Below, in pieces: positions 1 to 46,661 of a stretch of 64,000 nucleotides of DNA. Made by a program: the position numbers and the translations under genes. Position 1 is the first letter of the stretch. Every line of letters begins with the position of its first letter. Origin of the DNA: Fimicolochytrium jonesii (Eukaryota); NCBI RefSeq assembly GCF_025526975.1, contig NW_026515679.1, forward strand, positions 496,001 to 560,000, written 5' to 3'. The notes below the pieces were generated by a model. That model saw only the letters and a list, made by a program, of their open reading frames with translations, ran no database searches and was not told the DNA's origin.

Positions 1-1476
1 CGATGCTCGTTCGCAAGCTGGGTTGCTTGTTCGGATGTCAGCAGCCGAGGGTACTTCTCGTCCCAGAAGATGCCATTCACTAGGACGTTTGTGTATGGCG
101 CGATCTTTTCGAAAGCGGGACGTCAGTATCAGGCAAGTTGAAGCACTCTGGAGATGACCAACATGATGCGCACCTTCTCATGGAAAATGGACATGTAATG
201 CTCCGGGTGCTCGCGGTAATGGTCCCTATTGAACTTCCAGCCATCTTTCCGCACTAGATAGTCAGATGCTGTGACCTGGCACGCGTACACTCGGTGGTGG
301 CTCCAGCCTGCAAATGGAGGATGTCAACCTTCGGGCTCCTCCGGATCGGAAGAATCGATCTACCCACTCTGAGTCTTGTACAGGTCGCGCAGCTCATCTG
401 GGCTGACCCATTCATGCGGCAGACACTTGAAGACGTGCATTGCTCCCTACATCCCGCATAATGAGTTCCAGCTCAAGACGTCCGCAACCATCTTCCACAA
501 TGGAACATACTCTGGCAACATGTCCGTCTCCCGTGAACACGAACGACATCGGCCCCATCTGTCTGGGCAGCCCGTCGTCCATGATGACCTGTCCTGTGCG
601 CGTCACATCCAAACGGGCGTCCGCAAGGGTTCTGTACATGTAGGACATTCCAATCGCCTGCATACACACACGAGAGATAAGAACATTGGACTCTTGGTGA
701 AGTTCCTTTTGCCTGACACCCACCAAGAAAGGGTTTCCGTAACCCAGGGCCAGCAGTCGGTGACCCAGCCCATGCATGCTGTCAATCATCCCCGCATAAC
801 CGGCAAAGCGGCTGAACTGGACGACACGCCGCTTGGTGTCGTCTGTCATGAGCTCGTAATCTATCAATCTGATGCGCTGTGACACGAACATTGGAGTTTG
901 GCATCGACGAGTGGCGAGTGAGATTTCATGACAGGAAACACACCCACCTTGTCCAAAACCGCCTGCAGCAATGGCATATTGTACTTCTGCCCCTTGTGCG
1001 TATGCGAGAAGAACAGGTACGTCTTGTCGGCGATGAGCTGTTCTATTGGCACCTCCTTGACTCCAACAATCACATCCGCGACAGACAGGTCCTCAGCGAT
1101 GATCGCTCCCGCCTGGTATGGAACGACGTAGCTTCGTTAGCACCATGTTTTATGAGGGTTCGAAGCTGATGATGTTCAGCCTACCCACCTGCCTATACTT
1201 CTCGTCCGGCACAACTCGCTTCGTGCTCGGCTGCACATACACCTTCGTCCCCGTCTCCTTTACCAGCCGCTCGACATGCTCCGGCATCAACGGCACGCGC
1301 CGCTCCCATCGGTTTTTCTGCTCTGCACGGATACCTATGGATAGGCGGGCTGAAGTAGAGGTGGCGGACGCCGCCACCATCGCCGTTTTCGAGAACTTTC
1401 GCTGGCATTGGTGCAGACACTGCGGGTGCCGCAGACGGGCGTGGGACTGCGACCGGAAGGCTAGCATGGTCGACAT
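1..1476 (-). CDS. AASS: Alpha-aminoadipic semialdehyde synthase-like protein (lysine-ketoglutarate reductase domain), multi-exon, runs off the window start
   Basis: Arg-rich presequence, then IGIRAEQKNRWERRVPL..KVYVQPS; GVKEVP..FFSHTHKGQKYNMPLL; IRLIDYELM..FAGYAGMIDSMHGLGHRLLALG. These are LKR-domain motifs across several exons. Confidence 0.88.
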
Positions 1477-2030
1477 GCTGGGCTGGGGGCCGGGCAGTGT
1501 TGTGGATAGCTAGTTGAAGGGGCTCTGCTACTAAGGACGAGCGATCGCACAACGCAGACCTCAGGGATGCCAGCTGGGGGGTTTTATTATTTGCGCAAGA
1601 ATGAGGACCTCCTCGGCCCCGAGGAAACAATCGAGCGAGAGAGAGAGAGCGCATGGGGGCCCTCACGCGGCCCTTCCACGCGTCGCGCCCTATTACTGCA
1701 GTGGGAGTGACCAACCAGCCACGTTTCACTCGAGGCGGGGCCTTTTTTTTCTGTGCTCACCCTCCCTCAAGGCTCACACACACCCAGTCTCGGTGTCGAC
1801 AGGTCACGTGCCGCGGTCACTTCCAACCCCTCACCTCATGCGGCTGTCCGAACGAGCGAGCGAATGGATGGATGGATGTCCGAATGGGAATGCGAGTCGC
1901 GTCGCTTTCCCTTCTCCCTTTTGCCTTTCACTCTTCGCTCAGGCTCCCTACTCCTACTGTACGCCTCCGAGAGGACGACGCACACTCCACCCGTTCCTTG
2001 AGCTTCTTGAGCTCTTGTCTTTGGCGCGCA

Positions 2031-4560
2031 ATGGCTGCCGCGCGAGTTGCCAAACGACCTCGGTCGGCCGGCGAGAATGATGTCGACGTTTTGGGTCTAT
2101 GTGAGTTTCTTTGTCCAGGTTCAGAGTTCCTTGTCACTGCACCCTCCTTTTTTCATGCACCTAACTTGTGACTCTTTTCGGTTCCAGCGAGCTCTTTGCC
2201 GAAACGTACTCTTCGTTCTCGGACAGCTACCAATTCCTCGCTCAGCGTAAAAGTCGGCGTGTCCTCTCCGTCGCGCACGCCCCAAAGAACGGCTGCTCCC
2301 AGCTCGAGAGCATCCAAAGTCTTGTCGCCCCGCAAATTAGGGCAGGAGATCACCGCTGAGATGCAGCACGACGAGAATGTTGAGCCCACTTTGGTCACCT
2401 CCAAGCGCCAGGGTAAGGCCGCACTCTGTCGTAAAGCAGCAGTCTGGCTGCGGACGACTGAGCTCTCCATTTTACACCTGTAGACTCGTCCCCACCTGCA
2501 AAATCAACACATCCTACCCTCTCGCCAGCGCGAACGCCATCATCGCGATCCAGCAAACACCCCTTCCAGCGCCTCCCCAGCACGCCACGCACGCCTCAAA
2601 CAGTCTACCAGGAGGCCAAAGCACTGTTCCGCCGATGCAGCACGCCAACACGCTTAGTTGGCCGGAATAACGAGAGGCAAGAGCTGCAGTCGTTTTTACA
2701 GACTCATGCGGGAGTGGGGAAGCCGGGAGCGTTGTACGTGTCGGGCATCCCGGGGACGGGAAAGACGGCGCTGGTTGATGAGGTCGTCAGGGAGTTTAAG
2801 AAGGGTTGTGGCGAGGTACGTTGGAAAGGCACTGACAACTCGCCAGCCTCAGAAAGGCCGCGACATCTGACAAACGATCCTTCCCCTTCATGGTTAGTTG
2901 TCGCACGACCTGGTCACCGTGAAAGTCAACTGCATGGCCATGAAGGATCCCAAGATGGTGTATGCCAAAATCATAGGCGAGATCGAGCCGGATTCGCATT
3001 ATTCAACGAAGGATGCCTTTAAGCCTTTGGAGAATGCTATTGTCGGTGGTGGTGCAGAGGCTGGCGGCAAGAGGAGGTCGAAATACTTGTGAGTGCATAG
3101 CGGTTTGGGTCTTGAGACCGGCCAGTTGTCGTGAGAGAACTAATGAGCAATTCCCCGAAAAGCATCGTGATTCTGGACGAGATCGATACTCTCCTCACCA
3201 GAGACCAAGACGTCCTTTACACGCTATTTGAATGGCCCCATCTTGCCGGTTCCCGCTTGATATTGATCGGTATCGCAAATGCACTAGACTTGACGGACAG
3301 ATTCCTGCCCCGGCTCAAAGCCCGCAACTGTGAGTCAAACTCGCTTGCGACACACCACCACCGACAATGTACTAACAATCTGCAACCCCATTTCCCCCAC
3401 TAGGCGCCCCACGCCTGCTCAACTTCACACCCTACGACATCAAAGAGATCACACAAATCATCAAAGAACGCCTGCGGTGCCTCGAATCCTCCGAAACCGA
3501 CACCCTACGCGAAAACGTGCTCTCACCAGCATCCACAACCAAGATTGCCACTACGGTCCTGGGCAACATGACCCCGACGACGAGAGCGAAGGTGGGCACG
3601 CCGTTGATGCAGGATATGGCGATTGAGCTCTGTGCGAGGAAGATGGCGGGGACGGGGGACTTGAGGAAGGCGCTGGATGTTTGTCGGTGAGTCGGATGTT
3701 TGTCCGTGTCATTGTATTCCGAAAGAGCGAAAGCTTACTCTCCGATGGTACAGCCACGCGATCGAGATGGTCGAAGCCGAGTCCAAAAAGAAGGTTGCGA
3801 ACGGATCCGTCTTTCACAACAACTCCTTCGCCGCCAACCCCGCGCCCGGCACACCCACCCCTCGCCGCAACGCCTCCCTCACATCCACCGCCGGTCCCTC
3901 TCCGCTCCGCCCAACACCCTTCCCCCTCCCCAGCACCCCCATCGGCGCCGCCCTCACAACCCCAACAACAGCCGAAACCCCCCTCCTGATGGACACGCCC
4001 CTCTCCTCCCTCGACACGCTACCAAAAGTGACTGTGAAACATATCCTGAGCGCGACGAATGCGGTGTTTGGAAGCCCGGTGGTGAATCGGATCAAGGCAT
4101 TGAGCTTACATTGTAAGATGGTGCTTTGTGCGCTCGTGGTTATGGCCAGGGCACCCGGCGGCGGACGAGATACCACCATGTCGAAGGTATGTGGTACATT
4201 CGACTTGCTCGGGGATGAGGGGTTACGCTATGATACAATGCATGAAACTTGACACACCACCCACCACCACCACACACCCAGGTTTATGAAACATATGTGA
4301 CACTCAGCAAGCACCCCCGCATCGACATCCAACCCGTCACCCGCACCGAACTGCAAGACGTCATCACCAACCTTGAGACAGCGGCGCTCGTCACCCTCTC
4401 CAACACCGCTTCCATCCGCAGCGGCAAGATGATGGCGGCTGCGGAAGGGCGGTTGGCGGCGAATAGGAAGGTGGTGCTGACGTGTGGCGAGGGGGAGGTT
4501 GTCAAGGGGGTTGAGGGTATGCCGGTCTGTGGGGAGGCGTTGAGGGTTGGGGTTGAGTAG
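2031..4560 (+). CDS. CDC6: Cell division control protein 6 / Cdc18 (AAA+ replication licensing factor), multi-exon
   Basis: Walker A LYVSGIPGTGKT, VNCM, Walker B IVILDEID, VLYTLFEWP..LIGIANALDLTDRFLPRL, GDLRKALDVC and a C-terminal winged-helix-like region. Start codon inferred. Confidence 0.92.
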
Positions 4561-14747: not shown

Positions 14748-16156
14748 TCAAACGACAGTCATAAACAGTCCGACGGGCAGACCTGCCATTATCGCAGCGA
14801 GAAAGCTGTGGCTGCTCAACGTCCAGGTTGTCGCGGTTCCGGAAGACTTTTTGTCCGAAACTGACCCCTGGGTAGTGGAGGCGGCGGCACCAGAGGACCC
14901 AGTAGTGGGCGCACCGGAGGGTGTTTTACTGGCATCCGCCCCAGGAGGGCGGAATCCTGGCGGTAGAGTAGTAGCGTTCACAACATCGATGGTGCCCGGG
15001 ATCGGCAATGTACAGTATCCGAATTCAAGGGGGTCATTGGCACCGGCCGATGCCCCAGAAGGACATTTGTCGGGAACCAATGTTGAATTCCGTTCGCATT
15101 GCGTGCAGTCGTCGTTGCATCTCTGCAAAATCGTGGCGACGCCCTTCGAGTCGCATGTGAATTTGCGCCAGTACTTCTTGCCCATGTAGACATCTGAGAT
15201 GCAGGAGTTCCCGGCATATCTAAGAGAGATGAAGGAGTTCCCGGCATAGCTAAGAGAGATGTCGAAAGGACCATCACATCCTGTTGGCCTGAGAGAATGA
15301 ATGTATGAGCTTTTGGCACACTCATAATTGGACGGTTGGATGGTTGAAACAATACCCTGCTCGCCGCTCGCGACAAGGAAGTTGGGCGTGGGTGAGGGGA
15401 GTATTGCGGCTTTGGCGCAATGTAGGTGCTCGCTTCGCTCGCAAAAGATCTGACGCTTGCTGAGCTCGCTAAGAAACCCGGTGAGGGGAGTATTGCGCCT
15501 TTGGCGCCATGTGGCTCGCTCCGCTGGCGAAGGCGTTCGCTTGGTCAAAATCAAAACTCACCCGACCTGGGAAGAGACGATATAAGGACGGTTGGCTGCA
15601 GCGGAATCCTTGAGGATTTCGTCTGGGAACAGACTGGGCTTTGGGCCGGACGGCGTTCCGGCGTGCGGCAGCGTGGTCCAGTCGCCAACGAGTTTCTGAA
15701 GGTACGACCCCGTCTCCTGCGTCTGGTCACCGGCGCGGCAAACGCCGAGAAAGTTGAGCATGTTGCAGCGGTCTGGTCCCGCAGCGGCGTTCGTGCTTGT
15801 TAGGGACGGCTCTCCGGAAGCCACGTAGGTGGTGTAGCAGTCGGACAGGCTGGTGTCCCATACGTACTTTGTCGTAGAGTCGGGACCGACGGGCGTGAGA
15901 ATGACATTTGGAATGCCTTTTTCACACAGGCGGTGAAGATACGTTAGAAGTCTGCGTGCACTGCGAATGCAGTTCTGTTGTACTGTCGCCAGACTCTCTC
16001 TCTCTCTCTCAACTCACCTGTGCAGTCTGCCGAGTCATACCAAAGCCCTAGAATTGACTTGTAGGGAGCCGTGCCGTTCGTCTGAGCGCGTGCGAGAGGG
16101 ACCGAGAAGGCGACAGCCGTTGCAGCGACGGTGGACAAGAGCGAGAGCCTCATCAT
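14748..16156 (-). CDS. Secreted, probably GPI-anchored Cys-rich cell-surface protein, multi-exon
   Basis: Signal peptide MMRLSLLSTVAATAVAFSVPLARA, Cys-rich domains, Ser/Thr-rich stalk and hydrophobic C-terminus. Intron 15289-15561 restores the frame (SQVG|PTGC). Confidence 0.7.
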
Positions 16157-17554
16157 TATTGTTGCGAGCGAAGGTGGATACTGTATGGATATTGGAGAGA
16201 GCGTGAGGAAGTGGGTTTGGGCGAGGCTCTTGCCTTCTTGTAGCCGACGAGCCGAGCCGTTTGAGCTCGGTAGATGGGATAATGGAACATCAGCCCGGCC
16301 GTTTAGGTTTCCAACGTCCACAACCACACGCGTTTCCGTCATCTCACCGAGAATTCTATTCCACGTGAGCCATAACGTAGTAGCCAGAACGCGTCGATGG
16401 CTTACATGAGACGCATAACCGTTGACATTTTGCTCCTTTAGTAACCATCATCTTCATGATAGGAACCAACCACTACTTCTCCGCCGATATGACCTCGCTC
16501 AAGTCCGGAACCGCCAATCGCAAAGAGCGCACCCCTCGTGGACCGGCAGTCCGAAGCCCTACAGCTGTACGGCAACGTTTCGACACAATCGACACGTGCC
16601 AGCTATCGCCTGAATCCGGATAGCTGGCACGTTTGTTTGGATCGCTCCTGTGAGGAACCTATCTCCCGCTTTCGACAGAGCCGAGTATCAGAAGGCAGTC
16701 ATCCATCTTGGTACGGACGGACATCAAGACCTGGCCAATGTCAACACGGGCAACCAAACCTTGGAGTTTGCCGAAAGCTCCGCGCATACCCTGCTGCAAC
16801 CTATCATCATTGCATGGCAGAAAGTGTGAGTATCAACCTTGGGAATGATTGCGCAAGCCAACTATTTGCCGCTCTCAACCAAAGCGATCCACGTAGGAGT
16901 TGACTCGCTCACGGACGGCTGCGTGTATCCTATAGCTTTTTTCGGAGTTGAAATCTTCGGAATCACAAGCCGAGCCAACTTTATCGTGACGTTCGATGTC
17001 ACCAAGCGACAAATCAACGGTTCGCGGTCCAATGAAGAGGTCGAAAAACAGCTTGCAGACTTTTTTCAGGGCCGCGAAACGTTGATTTGTCGCTTGGTGG
17101 TAATATTCGCCGCGTCGACCAGGTCCCAGACGATCACCAGTTCCTCCTTTGAAGAGACTGCCGCCTCCAGACTAAGACCGAGAATCTCTGACTCCTGGAG
17201 AAACTTTGCGATAGCCTCTACTCTTTTGACCATATTGGACCACGTCCGCCTCTACACGTCTGCTGCAACCTGTCCATCAACTTTTGATGGTCTTCTTTTG
17301 CCTTAGCGCGGTTGTTATCGTATCTCTTCTGAAGCGCGGAGTCTACGGCCTTGGCGCGGGCCAGCAGCGAATAGTAAAGAGTAGTAGCGTCTGTCTGGAG
17401 CTTCGAAGAGGCCGAAGAGGAGGAGACGAAAGAGGGTAACCCGAGGGTGAGGGACAAACGTTATCGGGTAGCATTGGACAACAAAGAACCCAAAGTGAGC
17501 TACTCTGTAATAGATATAGGTTTCTGGTGTGCGAGCCAGTGGCGCGCTTTCAAC

Positions 17555-17711: not shown

Positions 17712-18361
17712 CGTATTGATATCAAAGGTGTTGGGCTTTTGGCGTTGGGACAGGCCGAGAACGCGGTTCTGGTGCTCAAACTTGTTCCAGACAATTTCGG
17801 TTTTCGGGTTTGCACGACAATGGACGCGCTGCAGGTCCCCCATTGTTTCAAATAGTGACCGCATTTCGACAGCAGCCGCGGTTCTCCTGGTGCGGCGTGT
17901 CGGTTTCATCGCAAACAAACCATCCTGTCTGCAACTGCTGTGCACCACACATCGCCAAGAAGCGTTCGCCGGGGGCGTTTTTTTCCATTGGAAATCCGCG
18001 ACACTGCACGACCCACGGGAGAACGACGATGGGGGCTTCTGCTGTCACTGGTTCTCAGTACTTGCGGTAGGACTCCGATAGGAGTACGTGGGACGGGATG
18101 GGATCGTTTCAACCAGCCCTCATGGGCACAGCGTCGTCCGCACATGTTACGGAAGTATTGATGGGAGTTCAGAGTGGACAAGTATAGGAGCAGAGGCAGC
18201 CGTGAGAACTCTGCATCTTATAAAAGCCCAAGACAGAGTGGGAAGACCGCCACCTCATTCGTCTCTCGCCACTCCCTCATAAACAACGGAAGTTCCTACA
18301 TTTGGAGCAACGCTGCATCTCCCTCAAGTGTAAAACCCACCCAAGTCACAACCTTTCAACC

Positions 18362-19388
18362 ATGCTCGCCCTGAAATCCGTCCTGCCGTTCGCGCTCCTC
18401 GCCCTCGCCTCCTTCACCTACGCACAAGACATCAACGCCATCCGATGCCAGAACGGTCAAGCCGCCCAAGCCGCTGACCAGGCCAAAGCCAGCATCAGCG
18501 CCTCCTCTGCCTGCAACACGGGCGACGTCGCGTGTGTCGGCGACAAATTTGGCCAATGCGTGGGAAGCAAGTTTGTCACGACTGCGTGTGCAGGCGGACT
18601 CAAATGCCAAGTTCTGCCTCTCGTGAACAAAGCGGGAACCTCCGTTGCGTGTACGTCCGATACCGACAAGAGTGCTCGTATCTCCGCTTCCCTCGCGAGC
18701 TGCAATGGCAATGCCGGCGGTAAACAAGCTGCCGGCCAGGGTAAACAGCCAACGAAAGCCCCTGCCAAGCCTGCTGCCGCGCCAGCTCCCGCCCCTGCTG
18801 CGGGAGGTGCCGCTTCTGGACCCAATGGCGCCGGCAACAAGAAGGCTACGCAGTTCATCACCGGTCCTTGCTCGTCGGACGCCGATTGCGCATCGGGATG
18901 CTGTGGATTCAGGACGGGCAAGTGCGCGGGTCCGGTCATTGCCCAAGAACGCGACGGTGGTTGTGGGTTCGGTGATGCTCAGCCCAATGGTACGTCCTCA
19001 ACTTTTCCCACCCATTTTCGTACATTGTACATAAGTCCGTTGTCTAACTCGATTTCTTCGGCTCACAGACAGAGCCGCCCGCATCTTCCGCGGCCAATCT
19101 CCCGCTCCTGCGCCGGCGGCCCCAGCGGCCCCGGCCCCCGCCAAACCCCAAAAGCAAGCACCACCGCCACAACAGGCGCCTGCCACAGGTGGGGCCGTGA
19201 CGAAGAAGGGCACCCAATTCATCACCGGCAAATGCGCCTCGGACTCCGACTGTGCCTCCCAATGCTGCGGGTTCAAGTCCGGTAAGTGCGCTGGCCCCGT
19301 CATCGCGCAGGAACGTGATGGCGGGTGCGGGTTTGGAGACGCTCAACCCAACGACCGCGCTGCCCGTATCTTCCGTGGCCAAGCTTAA
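18362..19388 (+). CDS. Secreted Cys-rich protein: CBM19-like domain plus two BAS2-like repeats, one intron
   Basis: Signal peptide; ACVGDKFGQCVGSKFVTTACAGGLKCQVLPLVNKAGTSVACT; two copies of QFITGxCxSDxDCASxCCGFxxGKCAGPVIAQERDGGCGFG separated by Ala/Pro linkers. TATAAA near 18219. Confidence 0.8.
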
Positions 19389-20315
19389 GTTCTCCGACGA
19401 CAGGGACATGAAGTTTTAGAACATCTGTACATACCTGATACATAGCCGCATTTGTAGAGTTTCCCCCACACCGAAGCGGTTTTCTTTCTTGAAGAGAGGC
19501 TTCTCCGTGTATATATATCATCGCTGCTCCTGTAGATAATACAATTTTCATCCCATTTGGTGTGCGAGGAACTAAGCAGCGGAACAAAGCAGCGGTGATG
19601 CTGAAAGGTGTGGGCACCGTGCCAAAGGTGCAAACGAGGTATCACAGAAGGTTCGAATGGGTTATCTACAAACACAGACAGCGGCAGCAGTGGATTGATA
19701 GATACGGATCCTAGCGAAGGGAAAAATGAACCAGGCTAGGGGGAGGCTAAGACTCGGAGTCCACACCCTTTCTGCATAGTTCTATCGAAAGGCTCATCCC
19801 ATCGTTAACGGGTATGTACGCCGACACCGCCCTCCCGCTCGAGCTTCTTGTAGTACTGTACTTCCATGCACACACAGCAGTGCCGACGTTAAATAAAATC
19901 GACAGCATGATGCCAAGTTCAGTAAAGCAGGACAATATAGCTGCTCCAACATTGTCACCATCTCGTCGTCCATTCCAACGCCTTTCAACCGCCAGATTAA
20001 AGTGTCTTGGTATGATTTGCATGTGTTTAGCAACACAACGGTGCGGTAGATTATGACGACGACGTTCAGTACCGACTGGTTAAACATGAACCAGGCAAAG
20101 CGACGGACGCCGGTCGAGGCCGTGGAGATTCCGCTCTGCGTCCGAGGGTCCGGGGCGTTTCCCGTGAATGAGAGCCAGCCGATGGATGAAAATGCACGTC
20201 CACCTGAAGAACATGGCCAAAAACGGGATGGTGTGATCTGTTTGGACAAGTAGACAACAACGCTAATCCCGCAGCTACTTGAGTTTCCGATGCTGGGCGA
20301 TAGACATGACAGTGT

Positions 20316-21338
20316 CTAAGGAGCCACTTGAATCTGCTCAACTTTCCGTTTCCCCTTACAATTCGCCTTAAAGAGTGAGACATGAGGATTCTGATCGTAA
20401 AAGAACCGCAGAGGCTTGTCCTTCCATTCAGCAGCATAATCTATCCCGATTCGCGGGCCCGCCTGTATCGCTATAGCTGTCTCTTCCGAAGCCTCGTCAA
20501 CAACTCCGACGTCTTCAAAGTACAATCCAGCGTCGGTACACGTCATGTCCACCCCATTTTGTGCCAAGTCGATCCCCATCGCCTGACACAGTTTCGCTGG
20601 TCCCGAGCACAGATCAGCCTCTCGCATTTCCTTCACATGCTTGACTGCAGCCGTTTCCCCACCGACGGCTTCTGCCTTTCGTTTCCGCGTGCTCCGTAAC
20701 GTCCGCATCGTTGCGACGCTCTCCACCTCTGGCTGCAGGGCTCGAATAAGCACCGCCTCTGGATAGCTTTCGGACCCGCAGACCACGTTGAGCATATGAT
20801 GCATGCCATACGTAAAGTAAACATACGCGTGGCCTTTAGGCCCATATATGATCTCCGTGCGCTTCGTCCGTCGGCCGGCATAAATATGGCAGGCCTTGTC
20901 ATCTTCTCCACAGTATGCCTCCGTTTCGACGATGATGCCCGTGAGACGCATGGTTTCGTTCGAGGAGGGTAGGAGCCGGACAAGACGCTTTCCGAGGAGA
21001 TCGCGGGCGACTGCTTCAGCTGGCCTCTGGAAGAACGACCGAGGGACGACGGGGTTGGCGGCGCTGCTGGCATCCGTCGCGGCAAGTGGTGGGCACTCAT
21101 TGGGAGCACTTTGAACTGGAAGGGTGCCGACCTGCTTCTCAGCTTCGAGCACTTCAAACGGCACCAGTTGCTCGATCTCCTTGCCCGTATCAGGCCCCGC
21201 CTGGTGATCTTCGTACGCCACTGCTCTGTTCCTCGGGCGCAGCGACGGTGATGCGACTGGCCCATAATCCGTCCCAGCTCGCCTGCTCCGTCGGAGAGGA
21301 AGTCCGGGAGCGTCCGTTGGACTTTTTCGTTTGGTCAT
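20316..21338 (-). CDS. MPG: 3-methyladenine DNA glycosylase (MPG/AAG family), intronless
   Basis: VARDLLGKRLV, GIIVETEAYCG, GHAYVYFTYGMHHMLNVV, AVLIRALQP, LCSGPAKLCQAMGI, GPRIGI. Basic NLS-like termini. Confidence 0.93.
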   Translation of the reverse strand: MTKRKSPTDAPGLPLRRSRRAGTDYGPVASPSLRPRNRAVAYEDHQAGPDTGKEIEQLVPFEVLEAEKQVGTLPVQSAPNECPPLAATDASSAANPVVPRSFFQRPAEAVARDLLGKRLVRLLPSSNETMRLTGIIVETEAYCGEDDKACHIYAGRRTKRTEIIYGPKGHAYVYFTYGMHHMLNVVCGSESYPEAVLIRALQPEVESVATMRTLRSTRKRKAEAVGGETAAVKHVKEMREADLCSGPAKLCQAMGIDLAQNGVDMTCTDAGLYFEDVGVVDEASEETAIAIQAGPRIGIDYAAEWKDKPLRFFYDQNPHVSLFKANCKGKRKVEQIQVAP

Positions 21339-21389: not shown

Positions 21390-21600
21390 GAACGACAGGA
21401 AAGCGGTACCTGGAAGGTACCGTCAGAGAACTCTTATCCCTCGTAGTCTGGACCTGATTCCGAACGACAACCGAGAAAATGACTCTTAGATGAGGTTGAT
21501 AAGAAAGCGAGGGAATGAACGAGAGGGAAGCGGCACCTGGAGGCTACCCTCTCAAAGCTCTTATTCCTTGTGCTCTATACCTGAGTCTGGACTACGGTCG
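21390..21600. repeat. Diverged direct repeat, two 84-nt copies (21390-21473 and 21517-21600)
   Basis: Ungapped alignment, 61/84 identities by hand count (GAACGACAGGAAAGCGGTACCTGG.. vs GAACGAGAGGGAAGCGGCACCTGG..). Confidence 0.75.
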
Positions 21601-21780
21601 GAATGTGGATGCCTGACGATTGCCAACCAGATTGCCAACGGAATTCGGCGCGTCCCTTCTTGAAAAGCTTATGCGATGGATTGTACAAGTTGCCATCATC
21701 GGCGACGCCTCAGGCAGAGGTACAATGATGTGGATGGCAGATAACCACCACGGAAAATGGGATGTGGTGAGGATTCTAGA

Positions 21781-23200
21781 CTACCTACGGTTACGGGAGA
21801 ATGCGCCTGGTCTGCGGCCATTGCCAAACACCACCGAACGCACAATCGAGAGGAAATTCTTGGTGCTCAGGACGTCCCGATTGTGCACTCTCATCCGTAG
21901 TCGTAGTGGTCGTCTTCCAGGAATCTCAAATGGCGTCCAGTCTTGGTTGATACATTCAGGGTTGGGGCAACCCACCAATCCATGGACGTATTCCATTCTC
22001 CCCCTTCTAGCTTGCCACGGCCGAGATGACAGCCGCTGTCGGATGTTTTTCCTCACACGCCCGTGGCAGTCTGGGCACACGGAAGACGTTCGATACTCAT
22101 CTAGCAAGTAGCATGGAATGCTGTTTCTTGCAAAGAGTGTGCGGAATCTGATTTCCACGATGAGTTAGCATATTATAGTACATAGTAGGTACTACCAACG
22201 ATAGTCACTCACCCTTTGGTCTTTGATGACTCCTGAAAGCGCATGGTTTTTCCAGCGTCGCTCCAATCACCCAAGATGACCAAAAAATGCTTTCCATACA
22301 GGCGTCGCATGTTCTTGATGAGCTTGCTCTCAGACTTTTGCCGCAGTGAGAACGCCTTGAATCTGCGAGCCACGTGAATCTCATCCTGGTAAAACTCATC
22401 CAGGGCAGGATCTGGGATATGGATGTCGGCCCATGCATTACCAAATTTGAAGACGATGCATGATACATCATACCTGCATGTTCGTAATCCACAATGAACG
22501 CTGAGAACACCTCGATGTTCATGCTCTTGTGCGACGAAATATGTGATTCCATCTCAGCGATGCCGGCATTGATCTTTCGCTCTGTCATGTCTCTTTGAAA
22601 GTACCGAGACTTTGTCTCGACCGCCCGTTGATTGGATGTGTATCTGATACGGGGTGGTGCATTGTGAGAACGCTGCAGCGGAATGTCGAACGAAGGGGAT
22701 CGTGGGGACGGGGACAAATTTCAAAGTGACGTTTTCTTGCGACGGTGACATGTCGTAACATGACCGCAATCTGGCATCTGCGGCATATGTAAACTGCGGA
22801 CGGTCATTGTATTACAGTATGTATTCAGATTTTCTTCCAAGGGCTCCCAACTTCCATACCCAATCTCAAAGTCTAGACTGCGAGCGGCTTTTATGTATTG
22901 ATCTAGTATTTCGGAGGTCATACGCTTGCCCTGCCATCCGGGAAGAGCGCACGCATCCACTCGGTCGCTGGGACGTCACTATGCAACGTGCGGCATCCTA
23001 TGGACAAGTACAAATTCGATTACGGTGAGGTTCGTGCGTAGTGCCCGGCAACCGAACTGGCAGCGATAGGTCTAGGTAGCTGCCCCAATTCTGAAGCGTT
23101 GCGATGCGATGGATGCAGACCGTGCGAATCTCCCGGCGGCTAAGGTGGGGCGGGCCTTCAAGGGACACTAAACCAGCGGCCTGACGTCGTTGCGAGACAC
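21781..23200 (-). mobile_element. Fanzor1 (eukaryotic TnpB) gene remnant with two spliceosomal introns; 3' half in frame, 5' half decayed
   Basis: Spliced translation: IRYTSNQRAVETKSR..SHKSMN..EFY..RQKSESKLIKNMRRLYGKHFLVILGDWSDAGKTMRFQESSKTKG|FRTLFARNSIPCYLLDEYRTSSVCPDC..VHGLVGCPNPEC..NRDVLSTKN..RPGAFSR. Introns at 22412-22473 and 22148-22212. The upstream boundary is approximate. Confidence 0.9.
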
Positions 23201-24124
23201 CGTGTGTTGGCCCACAACTACCTCAGGCTTATCACTTAGTGTCTCGCAAGTCCCAGGGTGACCGTATCGACGCCGTAGACAAATGCCCATAAAATGCCAT
23301 CACCCACAATGCCCTGATGTTCCTCGCCGACTGTGATCCGATATCCCACTAGACCCGCCGTAGTTAGTCCAGCCTAGCAATCCAAGCTTTGCTCGATCTG
23401 AGATAAGACACAGCTCAGTAACGGCGTGAGTATCTTCCCAAATCGCCGGATCGCATATCAAAAGCTCTGGTCGCTTTGATGGCGAGAAAATCAAGCAATT
23501 TCCTCAAGCAATCCTCCTCGTCGTTCGTGGCGGAGTTATCGAAATAGAGGTCGATTGTCGCATTGATCAATTCTGGACTCGTTCTTCTGGAATGACTATA
23601 GCTGTCTGCTCGGCTTCATTCTCGTCGGCTATCGACGTCAATGGTTCCACGTATCTGGGCTAAACCCTTCCAACGTAGGTGTACAGTTGACCGAAAAGAC
23701 TTCGGCAGCCTGTTTGAAGGTCTCGTGTATGCGACGAACCCGTCTTATCCGCTTGCGGCTTCTTCAACCGATGTTGACGGTTGACGGTTCTTTGCAACAC
23801 GGCGATGAGGGTGCAGGGAGAGAGGTTGTGGCGGACCAGTTGGACCAGGCAGCGACTTACCAGCGACCGGGCAGGAACTGCAAACCGGGCTACGATTTGT
23901 AGGAGCGACGGCTGGCGACGGCGCTCAGTATGGGTTGCCAGAGGCTCCAGATCCAGAGGGGAATGTTCTCAAAAATGCCCCAGTTTCTGTCAGCGTTTCT
24001 GTCATCGACGGGCTTCGAAGTTGTCCGCGTACGTTTTTCTGCTGGCCTGCGGTGGACATTGGACCCTCAGCACGTCGGCTCAAATACTCCACCTCTCACT
24101 ACATATCCAGGAACAGCAGCCATA

Positions 24125-25188
24125 ATGACCCAGTGTATCGATATCAAGGACAACGACGGCTATGACTTGGAGGTACCATTCACCTGAGTTTCGAAAGTAG
24201 AACAATGGCTGTTGGGAGTTCGAGCAAACCCTGACCGTCAGGGTCTATCCCATTCCCAACGCCCGCTTATAGAGGCTCTAACACACCTTTCCCACCTCCA
24301 TAGAACTTCGTTCTTCCCACGCACTATGCCCGGGACCTAGAGCGTGTGTTGATCCCGTATGGCCTCATCCGCGACCGCATCGAGAAACTCGCCGCTGATA
24401 TAGCCGCCGACTGTACCAACCCCGTCGTGGCCTGCTGTGTGCTGAAGGGCGCACATGGGTTCTTTGCGCATCTGATGGAATCACTGAAGAAGCAGAAAGA
24501 TCGCAAGGCTGAGTCTAGTACGTTCTTCTTCTCGGTGGTATCGCGGTGCCGGGCCTTTGATATACTGTCTAACGCCCGGCCCTCTTCCACCATTTAGTCC
24601 CCCTCAGCTTCGAATTCATCAAAGTAAAAAGCTACGAAAACACTGAATCGACCGGCAACGTCTACATCTCCCTCTCCGAGGAGGACATGAAGTCCTTCAA
24701 GGGTAAAGACCTCCTCATCTGCGAGGATATCATCGACACGGGGCGGACGATGGTCGCGTTGATTGAGAAGCTGAAGAAGTATGAGCCCGCTAGCATTCGG
24801 GTCGTGAGTTTGTTGTTGAAGAAGACGCCGAGGAGTAATCAATATGTGTAGGTTTCGGGGGGGAGCATGTGGGTTGAGCGTGGACGGGAGTGATGGCTGA
24901 TGAGTCGGTTTTGCAGGCCCGAGTATGTCGGATTCGCTATCCCGGATCTGTTCGTCGTTGGGTAAGCTTTTTCTTGGTGGTGCATCTCTCTTCTGAACTG
25001 AGTCTCACTTTCTTTTCCATTCTCTTCTAGATACTGCGTACGTATAAGCCCTGGTCATCCGACTGATCGATTGACGCATTTGAATAACTTCGAGTTTCCC
25101 CCCACAGCTCGACTACAACGAACACTTCCGCGACCTCGACCACATCGCTGTCATCAGCGAGCACGGAAAGCAGGCGTACGCTGTATAG
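24125..25188 (+). CDS. HPRT1: Hypoxanthine-guanine phosphoribosyltransferase, multi-exon
   Basis: VLIPYGLIRDRIEKLA, CVLKGAHGFF, EFIKVKSY, LLICEDIIDTGRTM, GFAIPDLFVVG, LDYNEHFRDL. Confidence 0.93.
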
Positions 25189-29261: not shown

Positions 29262-29265
29262 GGTT

Positions 29266-29333
29266 GCTGTGCTGGTGGATCTGCTGTGCTGGTGGATCTG
29301 CTGTGCTGGTGGATCTGCTGTGCTGGTGGATCT
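29266..29333. repeat. 17-bp tandem minisatellite (GCTGTGCTGGTGGATCT) x4 immediately upstream of the ArsM start
   Basis: Directly visible identical units with no spacers. Confidence 0.9.
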
Positions 29334-29698
29334 CTCTGTGTTGCGGGACCCACCCACTCTGAAGTGCAGTCCGTGGGGAGAGCTTTTCTCGTTGATCCTC
29401 TTGCTCCAGCTCTTGCTCAAGTTTGTCGCAAGAAGGACGCGGTGAGTCACCCACCGCATTCGACCGCTTTTTCTCTCAACTCAACCACCTCAGGCAGGTA
29501 GGCAACAATCCCTACACTCGCAAATACTGTACGCTCAAGAGAGCAGGCGCATAAGGTCGCCGCAAAGAGAGACTCCCAGTATACAATATATATAGAGGTA
29601 GCCGCCGCACAAAGAAAGGTAGAGTATCTAGAACCACTGCTTTCCGCTCGTGAGCCGGTATAGATCACTTTAACAACACCACCACCAACAGAAACAAA

Positions 29699-45246: not shown

Positions 45247-46661
45247 ATGACCGCCATCATATCTACCCAGACCCACGACCACTTGGTCAAATACCTGTCC
45301 ACCGCAACCGGTAAGAGTATGCGTGCATTGCATCTCAGTCGAGAGGGCGATGATGCTAACCACCTTCTCCATATAGGTCGCGACAGAATCCACAGGTAGG
45401 GCGAACCAACCGAACGACCCATATAGAGCTAGAGCAGGATAACGGGGCGAATGACTAACGGCGAGACCTTCAGATTCGTGCAGTACTTCTCCCGCTTCCT
45501 CGTGTGGCACGGCCAGAGGAATGGCTACGACAAGGATCTCCTCGCCCGTTTGACCAACCTCATGGGAGCTCTGGGACAGACGAGGAAGCTCATGCGCGTC
45601 GGGCGACAGGTCGAGTTCTTGAGGACTATCCAGAAGGCTGCTGGCTTGAAGGACGATGTTACGCGTTTGACCACGATTGTCAAGAACACGTTCTTGTCCC
45701 TTTGGTTGGCCCATGATACGTGCCAGTGGGTGAGTTGTGTGCGAGCGATAGCTCTCGCGAGCGGAGCGAGTCCACTGTAATATCGAGCGTTAGCGAAGTA
45801 CGAGCGAAGCGAGTTCCGCGCCGCAGGCGCAATAACTGTGAGCGATAGCGAACAATTCTCTCTTTAGGCGAGCGAAGCGAGCCCCTGTCTTCCGCTGTGA
45901 GCGATAACGAACGTTCGTTTTTATGATATCGCGCCCAACCTCCTCGTCGCGAGCGGAGCGAGAAAGGTATCGTTCAACGGTCCATCCGTCCAACCAACCA
46001 ACCTCGCTTCGCTTCGCTTCGCCTCGCTTCGCCTCGCTTCACCCCAACCTTCCAACCGTCCAACCTAGGGCATCGTTTCAATCAACAGGCCTTTCATTCA
46101 TCCATCTAACCGCGACTCATTCTTCGCGGGTTTCATAGGCACACGGCGCCGGAGTCGTCAAATTCACCAACATCACCGAAATCTCCCGCCGCGGTATGAA
46201 GTGCTGGCTGATAGCCCTGACAGCCTCCATCCTGGGCAACCTGCACAAATCGCGCGTGATGGAGCTGCGTTACGCGCATGAGGAGAAGATTGTGCGGGCT
46301 GCCAAGAACAAGGGCGTGCCGGATGAGGTGGCTACGCAGACTTTGGAGACTTTGAGGCGGTGGGTTTTGTGTTTATTGCTTGGATTGGGACCGCGATGAT
46401 GGTCTGATATCTTGTGTGGAAAACAGTGACAAGGTCAAGCAGAACCTGGCGACGTTCCAGGACGCACTCGATATCTGCATCCCGGCGACGGGTCTTGGGC
46501 TCCTCAACATTGAGAGTGGATACATTGGTCTTATCGGAGCTACCACATCTATACTCGGCGCCAGTAAGTGACATCGTGACTGGAAGTATATTTTCTTGAT
46601 CGACGTGCTGATACGTCATTCTTCTTTCTTTGCAGTCACGCAATGGAACAATACCCGCTAG
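45247..46661 (+). CDS. PEX11: Peroxisomal biogenesis factor 11, multi-exon (includes a micro-exon and a 409-nt intron)
   Basis: KYLSTATGRDRIHRFVQYFSRFL, RKLMRVG, QDALDICIP..GYIGLIGATTS..QW. Confidence 0.88.

What the first reader, a model, noticed from the sequence alone, without database searches (positions are those of the whole stretch)
21781..22680. Intron-containing Fanzor1 (eukaryotic RNA-guided TnpB-family nuclease) hidden across three exons
Seen: removing two canonical introns gives one continuous frame. They are 22412-22473 (GTATGA..CCCAG, 62 nt) and 22148-22212 (GTGAGT..CTAAC..ATCAG, 65 nt). The frame contains RYTSNQRAVET, RQKSES, GDWSDAG, DEYRTSSVC (RuvC-II Glu), a CPDC..CPNPEC zinc finger and NRD (RuvC-III Asp). 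Knowledge: these are Fanzor1 hallmarks and, as I recall it, closely follow the C-terminal half of Spizellomyces punctatus Fanzor1. Inference: this is a member of a chytrid Fanzor lineage that acquired spliceosomal introns, and intact sister copies may exist elsewhere in this genome.
Basis: partly seen in the sequence, partly recalled or inferred. Interest (0 to 1): 0.92.

Follow-up and report, generated by a model that had tools for sequence, protein, structure and literature searches.

The report
Headless, intron-split Fanzor1 transposon remnant
This is the rear third of a gene for Fanzor1, a known family of RNA-guided DNA cutters, split by predicted introns in a chytrid fungus; this copy has lost its front two-thirds and its first catalytic residue, so it likely cannot cut, though it keeps a likely guide-RNA tail and has intact-looking sister copies elsewhere in the genome.

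Summary
Observation confirmed; the locus is a fragment. Removing both introns (62 and 65 nt, minus strand) gives a stop-free frame. Each junction ranks first among nearby alternatives. The three exons match S. punctatus Fanzor1 (SpuFz1) in order, and the product equals a Fimicolochytrium jonesii gene model. No RNA test was possible.

RuvC-I Asp, WED and REC are absent from the whole window, so it likely cannot cut.

A likely omegaRNA begins 22 nt after the stop (14 of 19 bases match SpuFz1's). Among 49 sister models, 19 keep all catalytic motifs, and P0050 is full length.

SpuFz1 has no introns, and a metagenome relative has two at other positions, which favours separate intron gains. Intron-bearing Fanzors are published. 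This scan already reported whole six-intron copies on other DNA of this genome.

Verdict: an ordinary remnant of a known family. Interest 0.27.

The parts
22644..22720 (-). 3' part of a third (upstream) intron; the element's homology appears to begin here (5' break at about 22715-22735). Branch-like CTCAC at 22668-22664, acceptor AG at 22645-22644
   Evidence: 25 of 49 sister models read F-R-Y-T-S across this point; models P0011 and P0016 read into matching intron sequence, and P0016's match fades near 22715-22727
22474..22643 (-). Exon (170 nt), SpuFz1 residues about 401-457; ATG of the annotated 226-aa model at 22588
22412..22473 (-). Predicted intron, 62 nt, phase 1
   Evidence: sister models P0003 and P0034 read into the same intron
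22213..22411 (-). Exon (199 nt) with RQKSES and GDWSDAG, including the RuvC lid region
   Evidence: lid at SpuFz1 506-522 from PMC11423790 passages
22148..22212 (-). Predicted intron, 65 nt, phase 2, CTAAC branch site
   Evidence: 4 of 73 F. jonesii-type models read into matching sequence
21781..22147 (-). Last exon (367 nt with stop): RuvC-II Glu (22098-22096, SpuFz1 E541), C4 zinc finger, RuvC-III Asp (21876-21874, SpuFz1 D606)
   Evidence: residue numbers from PMC10432273 with fusion offset 394 read
21670..21758 (-). Likely omegaRNA scaffold and element right end (89 nt, two predicted hairpins, ends in CATA); 3' end placed by analogy only
   Evidence: 14 of 19 bases match the start of the SpuFz1 omegaRNA, 22 nt after the stop (21 nt in SpuFz1); folds
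21655..21669 (-). Would-be 15-nt guide taken from host flank; no other exact copy in the window
   Evidence: inferred from the 14-15-nt guides of PMC10432273
22721..24100 (.). Unassigned DNA upstream of the break; no Fanzor N-terminal homology and no left inverted repeat found
20316..21338 (-). Host neighbour: methylpurine-DNA glycosylase (MPG) gene, ATG about 330 nt past the likely right end
   Evidence: Pfam PF02245 E 7e-61
24304..24851 (+). Host neighbour: pieces of an HPRT-like phosphoribosyltransferase gene, divergent from MPG
   Evidence: Pfam PF00156 E 2e-14 for 24576-24851; the label HPRT is recalled

Best explanation
The locus is a 5'-truncated copy of a many-copy Fanzor1 element of the chytrid Fimicolochytrium jonesii: it keeps the last three exons and a likely omegaRNA tail but lacks WED, REC and the RuvC-I Asp, so it likely cannot cut DNA. 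Shown: exon order and homology, absence of the front part from the window, sister gene models with all catalytic motifs. Inferred: an intact sister is spliced into a protein of about 760 aa; it binds an omegaRNA of about 89 nt plus a guide read into the flank, and cuts empty sites to help the element persist, as proposed for SpuFz1. This copy likely arose when a full element inserted between the divergent MPG and HPRT-like genes and then lost its left part by deletion or rearrangement (or was inserted incomplete). It is likely decaying; at most it could supply an omegaRNA to intact sister proteins.
For: Junction ranks 1 of 49 and 1 of 35. Spliced frame ends in the exact sequence of model P0001. 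Fanzor profiles hit only positions 407-644 of 678 and 515-757 of 757, all within 21772-22651; nothing else in six frames of 64 kb exceeds 5 bits. tblastn of 52 and of 30 fetched proteins finds no N-terminal match. SpuFz1 D383 lies about 18 residues before the first matched residue. The window differs from the commonest sister residue at 12 of 244 positions, several nearly private: Pro to Ser (37 of 38 sisters Pro), Ala to Val (39 of 39), Asp to Gly (36 of 37). Tail: 14 of 19 match to the SpuFz1 omegaRNA start, reached at only 3 of 127,964 window positions.
Against: The three remaining exons have no stop or frameshift and both introns keep canonical sites, so decay is slight or recent. Tail folding is only modestly stable (z -1.4 for 21670-21758, 16 of 200 shuffles as good; z from -2.1 to 0.0 for four other frames covering it). 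Rfam has no match. The 19-nt length was chosen after seeing the match, and the L001 tail matches weakly (11 of 19, reached at 235 of 127,964 positions).
Confidence: 0.85

Rival explanations
1. The copy is a working ghost-type locus: the protein is dead but the tail is transcribed and loads onto intact sister Fanzors, guiding them to alleles that lack the insertion upstream of the MPG gene.
For: S. punctatus has 134 ghost loci whose omegaRNAs work with SpuFz1 (PMC10432273 passages). The tail keeps its position, 5' motif and two hairpins. Intact-looking proteins exist in trans.
Against: Ghosts keep both inverted repeats, and no left repeat was found here (best 17-18 of 30 ungapped). With the 5' part gone the element's promoter is probably gone too (inference). 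The fold is weak. This reading is compatible with the main one.
Confidence: 0.25
2. It is an internally deleted, non-autonomous element that keeps both ends, with the left end somewhere in 22721-24100 (for example at 23457).
For: TATGCGAT at 23457 is the exact reverse complement of the last 8 nt of the likely right end and is the only other occurrence in 64 kb.
Against: The match is 11 of 30 over a TIR length, whereas Spu-1 has 30-33-nt repeats. About 2-3% chance for an 8-mer in 1.6 kb (my arithmetic). No TSD-like word at the boundaries (longest shared word 8 nt, away from both ends).
Confidence: 0.12
3. The 226-aa C-terminal product (model P0001, ATG at 22588) is expressed and has a function of its own, such as binding omegaRNA or dampening the intact enzymes.
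For: Open frame with an in-frame ATG; at least seven other models start at the same Met. RuvC/TNB surfaces bind the first omegaRNA stem-loop (PMC11423790 passages).
Against: It lacks the first RuvC strand, so the fold is likely broken (inference). Shared starts are expected when a gene finder picks the first Met in fragments. N-terminal-only models are also common (19 of 25 hits named F. jonesii). Private substitutions at conserved sites.
Confidence: 0.04
4. The gene is whole in the cell and the missing front is an assembly artefact.
For: Many copies at 77-100% identity make misjoins possible; a sister model reads through low-complexity sequence in this same intron (P0016).
Against: No gap or composition step at the break; ordinary host genes lie on both sides.
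Confidence: 0.04

Closest known systems
SpuFz1 and the Spu-1 (SPu-1) element of Spizellomyces punctatus (PDB 8gkh, 9ceu-9cez; PMC10432273, PMC3627910)
   Same: Colinear C-terminal third with E541, D606 and the C4 finger; a tail resembling its omegaRNA start at the same distance from the stop; many copies, many partial (19 of 42 full length in S. punctatus).
   Different: SpuFz1 is one unbroken 1917-nt ORF. The F. jonesii family has introns, an N-terminal extension of about 130 aa, Gly for N385 and Ala for the TAM contact N133 in P0050. Likely scaffold 89 vs 75 nt, ending CATA vs ACTA. This copy lacks residues 1-400 and a left repeat.
Ghost Spu-1 elements (PMC10432273)
   Same: An omegaRNA-like right end without a working nuclease gene.
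   Different: Ghosts are about 550 nt with both repeats and no Fanzor ORF; this keeps 244 codons and shows no left repeat.
CRe-1, 2, 3 / CrFNuc of Chlamydomonas reinhardtii (PMC3627910, PMC10530073)
   Same: Intron-split Fanzor1 genes (5 or 10 exons, EST-supported) that are often 5'-truncated with intact 3' ends.
   Different: Helitron2 elements with 7-19-bp TSDs; no TSD found here, and no clear 3' bias could be shown in F. jonesii.
Metagenome relative L001
   Same: Fanzor1, 41.5% identical to P0050 over 638 columns after removing two GT-AG introns.
   Different: Its introns lie near P0050 positions 272 and 697, where F. jonesii models and the window run through; it runs through all three window junctions.

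Membership tests
Fanzor1 (sequence family) | Significant similarity to a characterised Fanzor1 | tested here: met
   P0001 vs 8gkh E 1.5e-60 and vs PpFz1 9cf0 E 9e-19
Fanzor1 (sequence family) | RuvC-II Glu, TS-xx-C4 zinc finger and RD (RuvC-III) part of the Bao and Jurka motif | tested here: met
   motif from the PMC3627910 abstract
Fanzor1 working nuclease (this copy) | RuvC-I Asp (SpuFz1 D383) | tested here: not met
   absent from six frames of the window; not filed as a working nuclease
Fanzor1 working nuclease (this copy) | WED and REC domains | tested here: not met
   profile positions 1-406 of 678 unmatched
Fanzor1 working nuclease (sister copies) | Full-length frame with all three catalytic motifs and the zinc finger | tested here: met
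   P0050 covers 8gkh 410-1027; 19 of 49 models hold all motifs, many of them short; predicted models only
Fanzor1 system | omegaRNA scaffold between stop codon and right end | tested here: inconclusive
   position and 14 of 19 match favour it; folding modest; no Rfam hit; no sister DNA for covariation
Fanzor1 system | omegaRNA expressed and bound; RNA-guided, TAM-dependent cleavage | not testable with these tools
   needs small-RNA sequencing and biochemistry
Spu-1-type element | Terminal inverted repeats of 30-33 nt at both ends | tested here: not met
   no left repeat in 22650-24300 or elsewhere
Spu-1-type element | TA target-site duplication | tested here: inconclusive
   likely right end finishes in TA; the left end is missing
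Spu-1-type element | Single unbroken ORF | tested here: not met
   introns here vs CDS 1179..3095 unjoined in SpuFz1
Spliceosomal introns | GT..AG ends, branch site, removal restores the homologous frame | tested here: met
   intron 2 has CTAAC, intron 1 has no clear CTRAC
Spliceosomal introns | Junction reads in RNA | not testable with these tools
   no run was listed
Helitron2-borne CRe-type Fanzor1 | Variable-length TSD around 5'-truncated copies | tested here: not met
   longest word shared by the two flanks is 8 nt and not at the boundaries

The most novel reading that the evidence does not exclude
The SpuFz1 clade gained spliceosomal introns at least twice at different positions (none in S. 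punctatus, about six in F. jonesii, two others in L001), and the F. jonesii enzyme has switched its target motif. Its right end reads CATA directly before the guide, which a CATA-reading enzyme like SpuFz1 would cut as its own filled site, and the TAM contact N133 is Ala in sister P0050. This headless copy still feeds an omegaRNA to intact sisters, aimed at insertion-free alleles of the MPG upstream region.
Probability: 0.15. Interest if true: 0.55.

Novelty: new member of a known kind. Interest (0 to 1): 0.27.

Why it matters
This copy matters little by itself: partial Fanzor copies are common. The family is more useful. It is a close relative (about 40-45% identity) of the best-engineered Fanzor, it was not found in the two main Fanzor papers' supplements, and its introns hide it from ORF-based mining. 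If its TAM differs from CATA, a sister such as P0050 would add targeting range and give a natural test of how TAM contacts and element ends change together to avoid self-cutting. The three-way intron comparison is a small, clean case of intron turnover inside one transposon-borne gene clade.

Tried and rejected
No whole genome is held for this window, so there was no genome tblastn and no sister DNA. Sequencing runs: none was listed; this is no evidence on expression. Pfam did not recognise the exons or sister models above cut-off (best Cas12f1-like_TNB E 0.027); the precomputed PF26935 label on some sisters has no name in these outputs.

Upstream DNA: an 84-aa frame at 22724-22975 looked chromodomain-like by eye (recalled pattern) but had no Pfam, Atlas or homologue hit; rejected. 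A weak tblastn match of P0061 at 23702-23532 (E 0.014 on a 2.9-kb subject with about 210 queries) suggested an older Fanzor piece, but neither profile found it; rejected.

Ends: no left inverted repeat or TSD found. A 3' bias among copies could not be shown, because the sister set was found with the last exon and N-terminal fragments also exist. An introner-like origin is not supported: no pair among five intron sequences beat shuffles (best 19 of 200 as good).

L001 tail comparison: one search was off by one base and is discarded; redone, weak. The L001 splice test was also off by one; redone.

Other searches: a metagenome scan with P0050 and a viral scan with P0055 found nothing. Eight viral loci at 25-30% identity were too distant and were not analysed. 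Look-ups of earlier findings by sequence returned nothing even for the coding exons, so those blanks say nothing. The bacterial promoter scan is not applicable to a fungus. The tree (29 rows picked from about 200 fetched proteins) does not resolve the base, so gain versus loss of introns is not settled by it.

Full report
Observation. The feature is on the minus strand. The exons match the SpuFz1 chain of PDB 8gkh in order: fusion residues 793-846, 856-918 and 919-1027. I scored every GT/GC donor and AG acceptor pair within 45 nt of each site, plus the unspliced read-through, against a profile of the 14 non-F. jonesii rows of alignment A1. In an alignment with 20 relatives, intron 2's junction is gap-free and intron 1's shows only a one-column gap. 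The introns are therefore not coding in homologues. Splicing is predicted; no sequencing run was listed.

Source and family. A search with the last exon returned 13 proteins among 1933 candidates, all named Fimicolochytrium jonesii, 73-100% identical. The spliced frame ends in the exact sequence of one of them, the 226-aa model P0001, so an independent gene prediction uses the same junctions. Ten of those clusters were opened. After dropping three unrelated 51-56-aa metagenome members, 49 F. jonesii models remained, median 92% identical to the window product. Of these, 34 carry the intron-1 junction peptide, 41 the intron-2 peptide, and 19 hold the RuvC-I, II and III motifs and both zinc pairs. 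P0050 (761 aa) aligns to 8gkh 410-1027 at E 5e-149 without large gaps. Some models read into intron sequence that matches the window's (P0003 and P0034 for intron 1; P0025, P0033, P0053 and P0074 for intron 2), so sister loci likely carry the same introns.

Sisters read K-E-R-P-F-R-Y-T-S (25 of 49 have F-R-Y-T-S), but the window has an acceptor, ATCAG, ending at 22644 with a CTCAC 20 nt before it. Models P0011 and P0016 read into this third intron, and P0016's match to the window fades near 22715-22727. Nothing upstream resembles Fanzor. A profile of 85 near-full-length relatives matches only positions 407-644 of 678, a profile of 10 F. jonesii models only 515-757 of 757, and no other hit in six frames of the 64 kb passes 5 bits. 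With the fusion offset of 394, the copy covers SpuFz1 residues about 402-633 of 638. It keeps E541 and D606 but not D383, N385, WED or REC. The paper names E541, D383, N385 and D606 as the magnesium ligands (PMC10432273 passages), so this copy likely cannot cut. It differs from the commonest sister residue at 12 of 244 positions, several nearly private, including a Pro kept by 37 of 38 sisters and most relatives. The frame is otherwise unbroken, so the loss is probably recent (inference).

The tail. In the SpuFz1 locus printed in the paper's supplement, the omegaRNA starts 21 nt after the stop. In the window, 22 nt after the stop, 14 of 19 bases match that start; only 3 of 127,964 window positions score as well. 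I chose the 19-nt length after seeing the match, so the figure is optimistic. By eye, the first stem differs from SpuFz1's at three pairs on both sides and still pairs; this is a two-sequence comparison, not a covariation test. The stretch 21758-21670 folds into two hairpins (z -1.4, 16 of 200 shuffles as good; z -1.75 and -2.1 for tighter frames, -1.0 and 0.0 for wider ones), the layout described for SpuFz1 and PpFz1 (PMC11423790 passages). Ten bases follow the second hairpin and end in TA; I place the right end at 21670 by analogy with SpuFz1's TA end. Against: no Rfam hit, and L001's tail matches only weakly (11 of 19). No left inverted repeat or TSD was found; an 8-nt match at 23457 extends to only 11 of 30.

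Introns across the clade. SpuFz1 is one unjoined CDS of 1917 nt, and both papers call it a single ORF. Metagenome locus L001 encodes a relative with two GT-AG introns (1235-1293 and 2575-2638); once they are removed it is 41.5% identical to P0050 over 638 columns. It runs through all three window junctions. Its own introns fall where F. jonesii models run through (17 and 42 of 73 models show the continuous peptides; the window's last exon is continuous at the second). Read-through patterns suggest three more F. jonesii introns upstream, which fits the six in earlier notes; those positions are inferred without DNA. Non-overlapping positions favour separate gains, but the tree leaves the base open: F. 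jonesii groups with P0070 and Phlyctochytrium arcticum P0055 (90/94), L001 with P0062 (100/99), and S. punctatus P0056 is unplaced.

How it likely works. By established knowledge of SpuFz1, an intact copy makes a nuclease that binds the RNA from its own right end and uses 14-15 nt of flank as guide. This copy lies between the divergent MPG and HPRT-like host genes and is best read as a remnant of such an element (0.85). It might still donate an omegaRNA, as ghost loci can (0.25, compatible with the main reading). One testable point: the likely right end reads CATA just before the guide, which is SpuFz1's TAM, whereas SpuFz1's own end reads ACTA. An enzyme with a CATA TAM would cut its own filled site. 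In P0050 the TAM contacts Q130 and R291 and the unwinding residue Y345 are kept but N133 is Ala (contacts). The family may therefore read another TAM, or my end is misplaced. The lead on changed contacts came from note e1-10708267.

Prior knowledge. Intron acquisition by Fanzors is reported (PMC10530073, passages). Multi-exon, often 5'-truncated Fanzor1 genes are reported in Chlamydomonas (PMC3627910, passages). Partial and ghost copies are reported for Spu-1 (PMC10432273: passages, section 7, supplement search and part 1 of 83 of supplement 6). I found no paper on the F. jonesii family. Of 17 papers holding 'Fimicolochytrium', 15 were listed and none has a Fanzor title (listing only). 'Fanzor' with 'Spizellomycetales' gave 0. 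The name and its accession prefixes are absent from the searched supplements of PMC10432273 (9 files searched, one scanned file not readable) and PMC10530073 (2 files), and the name is absent from the main text of PMC10432273, PMC11423790 and PMC13434818. PMC10711439 passages added nothing; its supplements were not searched and could list these proteins. Subscription papers are not covered. This scan already noted whole six-intron copies and a Fanzor-TET-like pairing on other DNA of this genome; those notes are unreviewed.

Verdict. Real, correctly identified, but a headless copy of a known kind. Novelty: new member of a known kind, filed as a truncated Fanzor1 element and not as a working nuclease. 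Interest 0.27.

Noticed in passing
window 21390-21468 and 21517-21595: A 79-bp degenerate direct repeat (75% identical, E 1e-8 within the window) between the Fanzor tail and the MPG start codon.
   Followed up: partly
window 15328-15388 and 45932-45993: A 63-bp inverted copy at 83% identity, 30 kb apart, with GCTCGCTTCGCTCGC-type motifs in both places and an 89-nt-spaced internal repeat at 15391-15531; possibly ends of another small mobile element.
   Followed up: partly
window 17000-17099: A hairpin with 31-bp arms, 94% complementary, 38-nt loop.
   Followed up: no
window 29265-29349: A 17-bp tandem repeat, about four copies.
   Followed up: no
window 18224-19390: A Cys-rich, secreted-looking ORF with an internally duplicated 162-bp module (73% identical, spacing 364).
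   Followed up: no
L001 448-2787 and 3720-5093: A complete-looking two-intron Fanzor1 on a 5.1-kb metagenome contig, followed by an open-ended ORF of 458+ aa with no Pfam hit above cut-off. Relatives P0059, P0207, P0208 and P0062 read into an intron at the same second position.
   Followed up: partly
window 23457-23450: An 8-nt exact reverse complement of the likely right-end terminus, unique in the window; too short to call a left end.
   Followed up: partly
proteins P0055, P0201-P0205, P0066, P0228, P0229: Related Fanzor1 proteins are annotated as hypothetical in Phlyctochytrium arcticum (six members, three of 660 aa), Gaertneriomyces semiglobifer and Synchytrium endobioticum.
   Followed up: no
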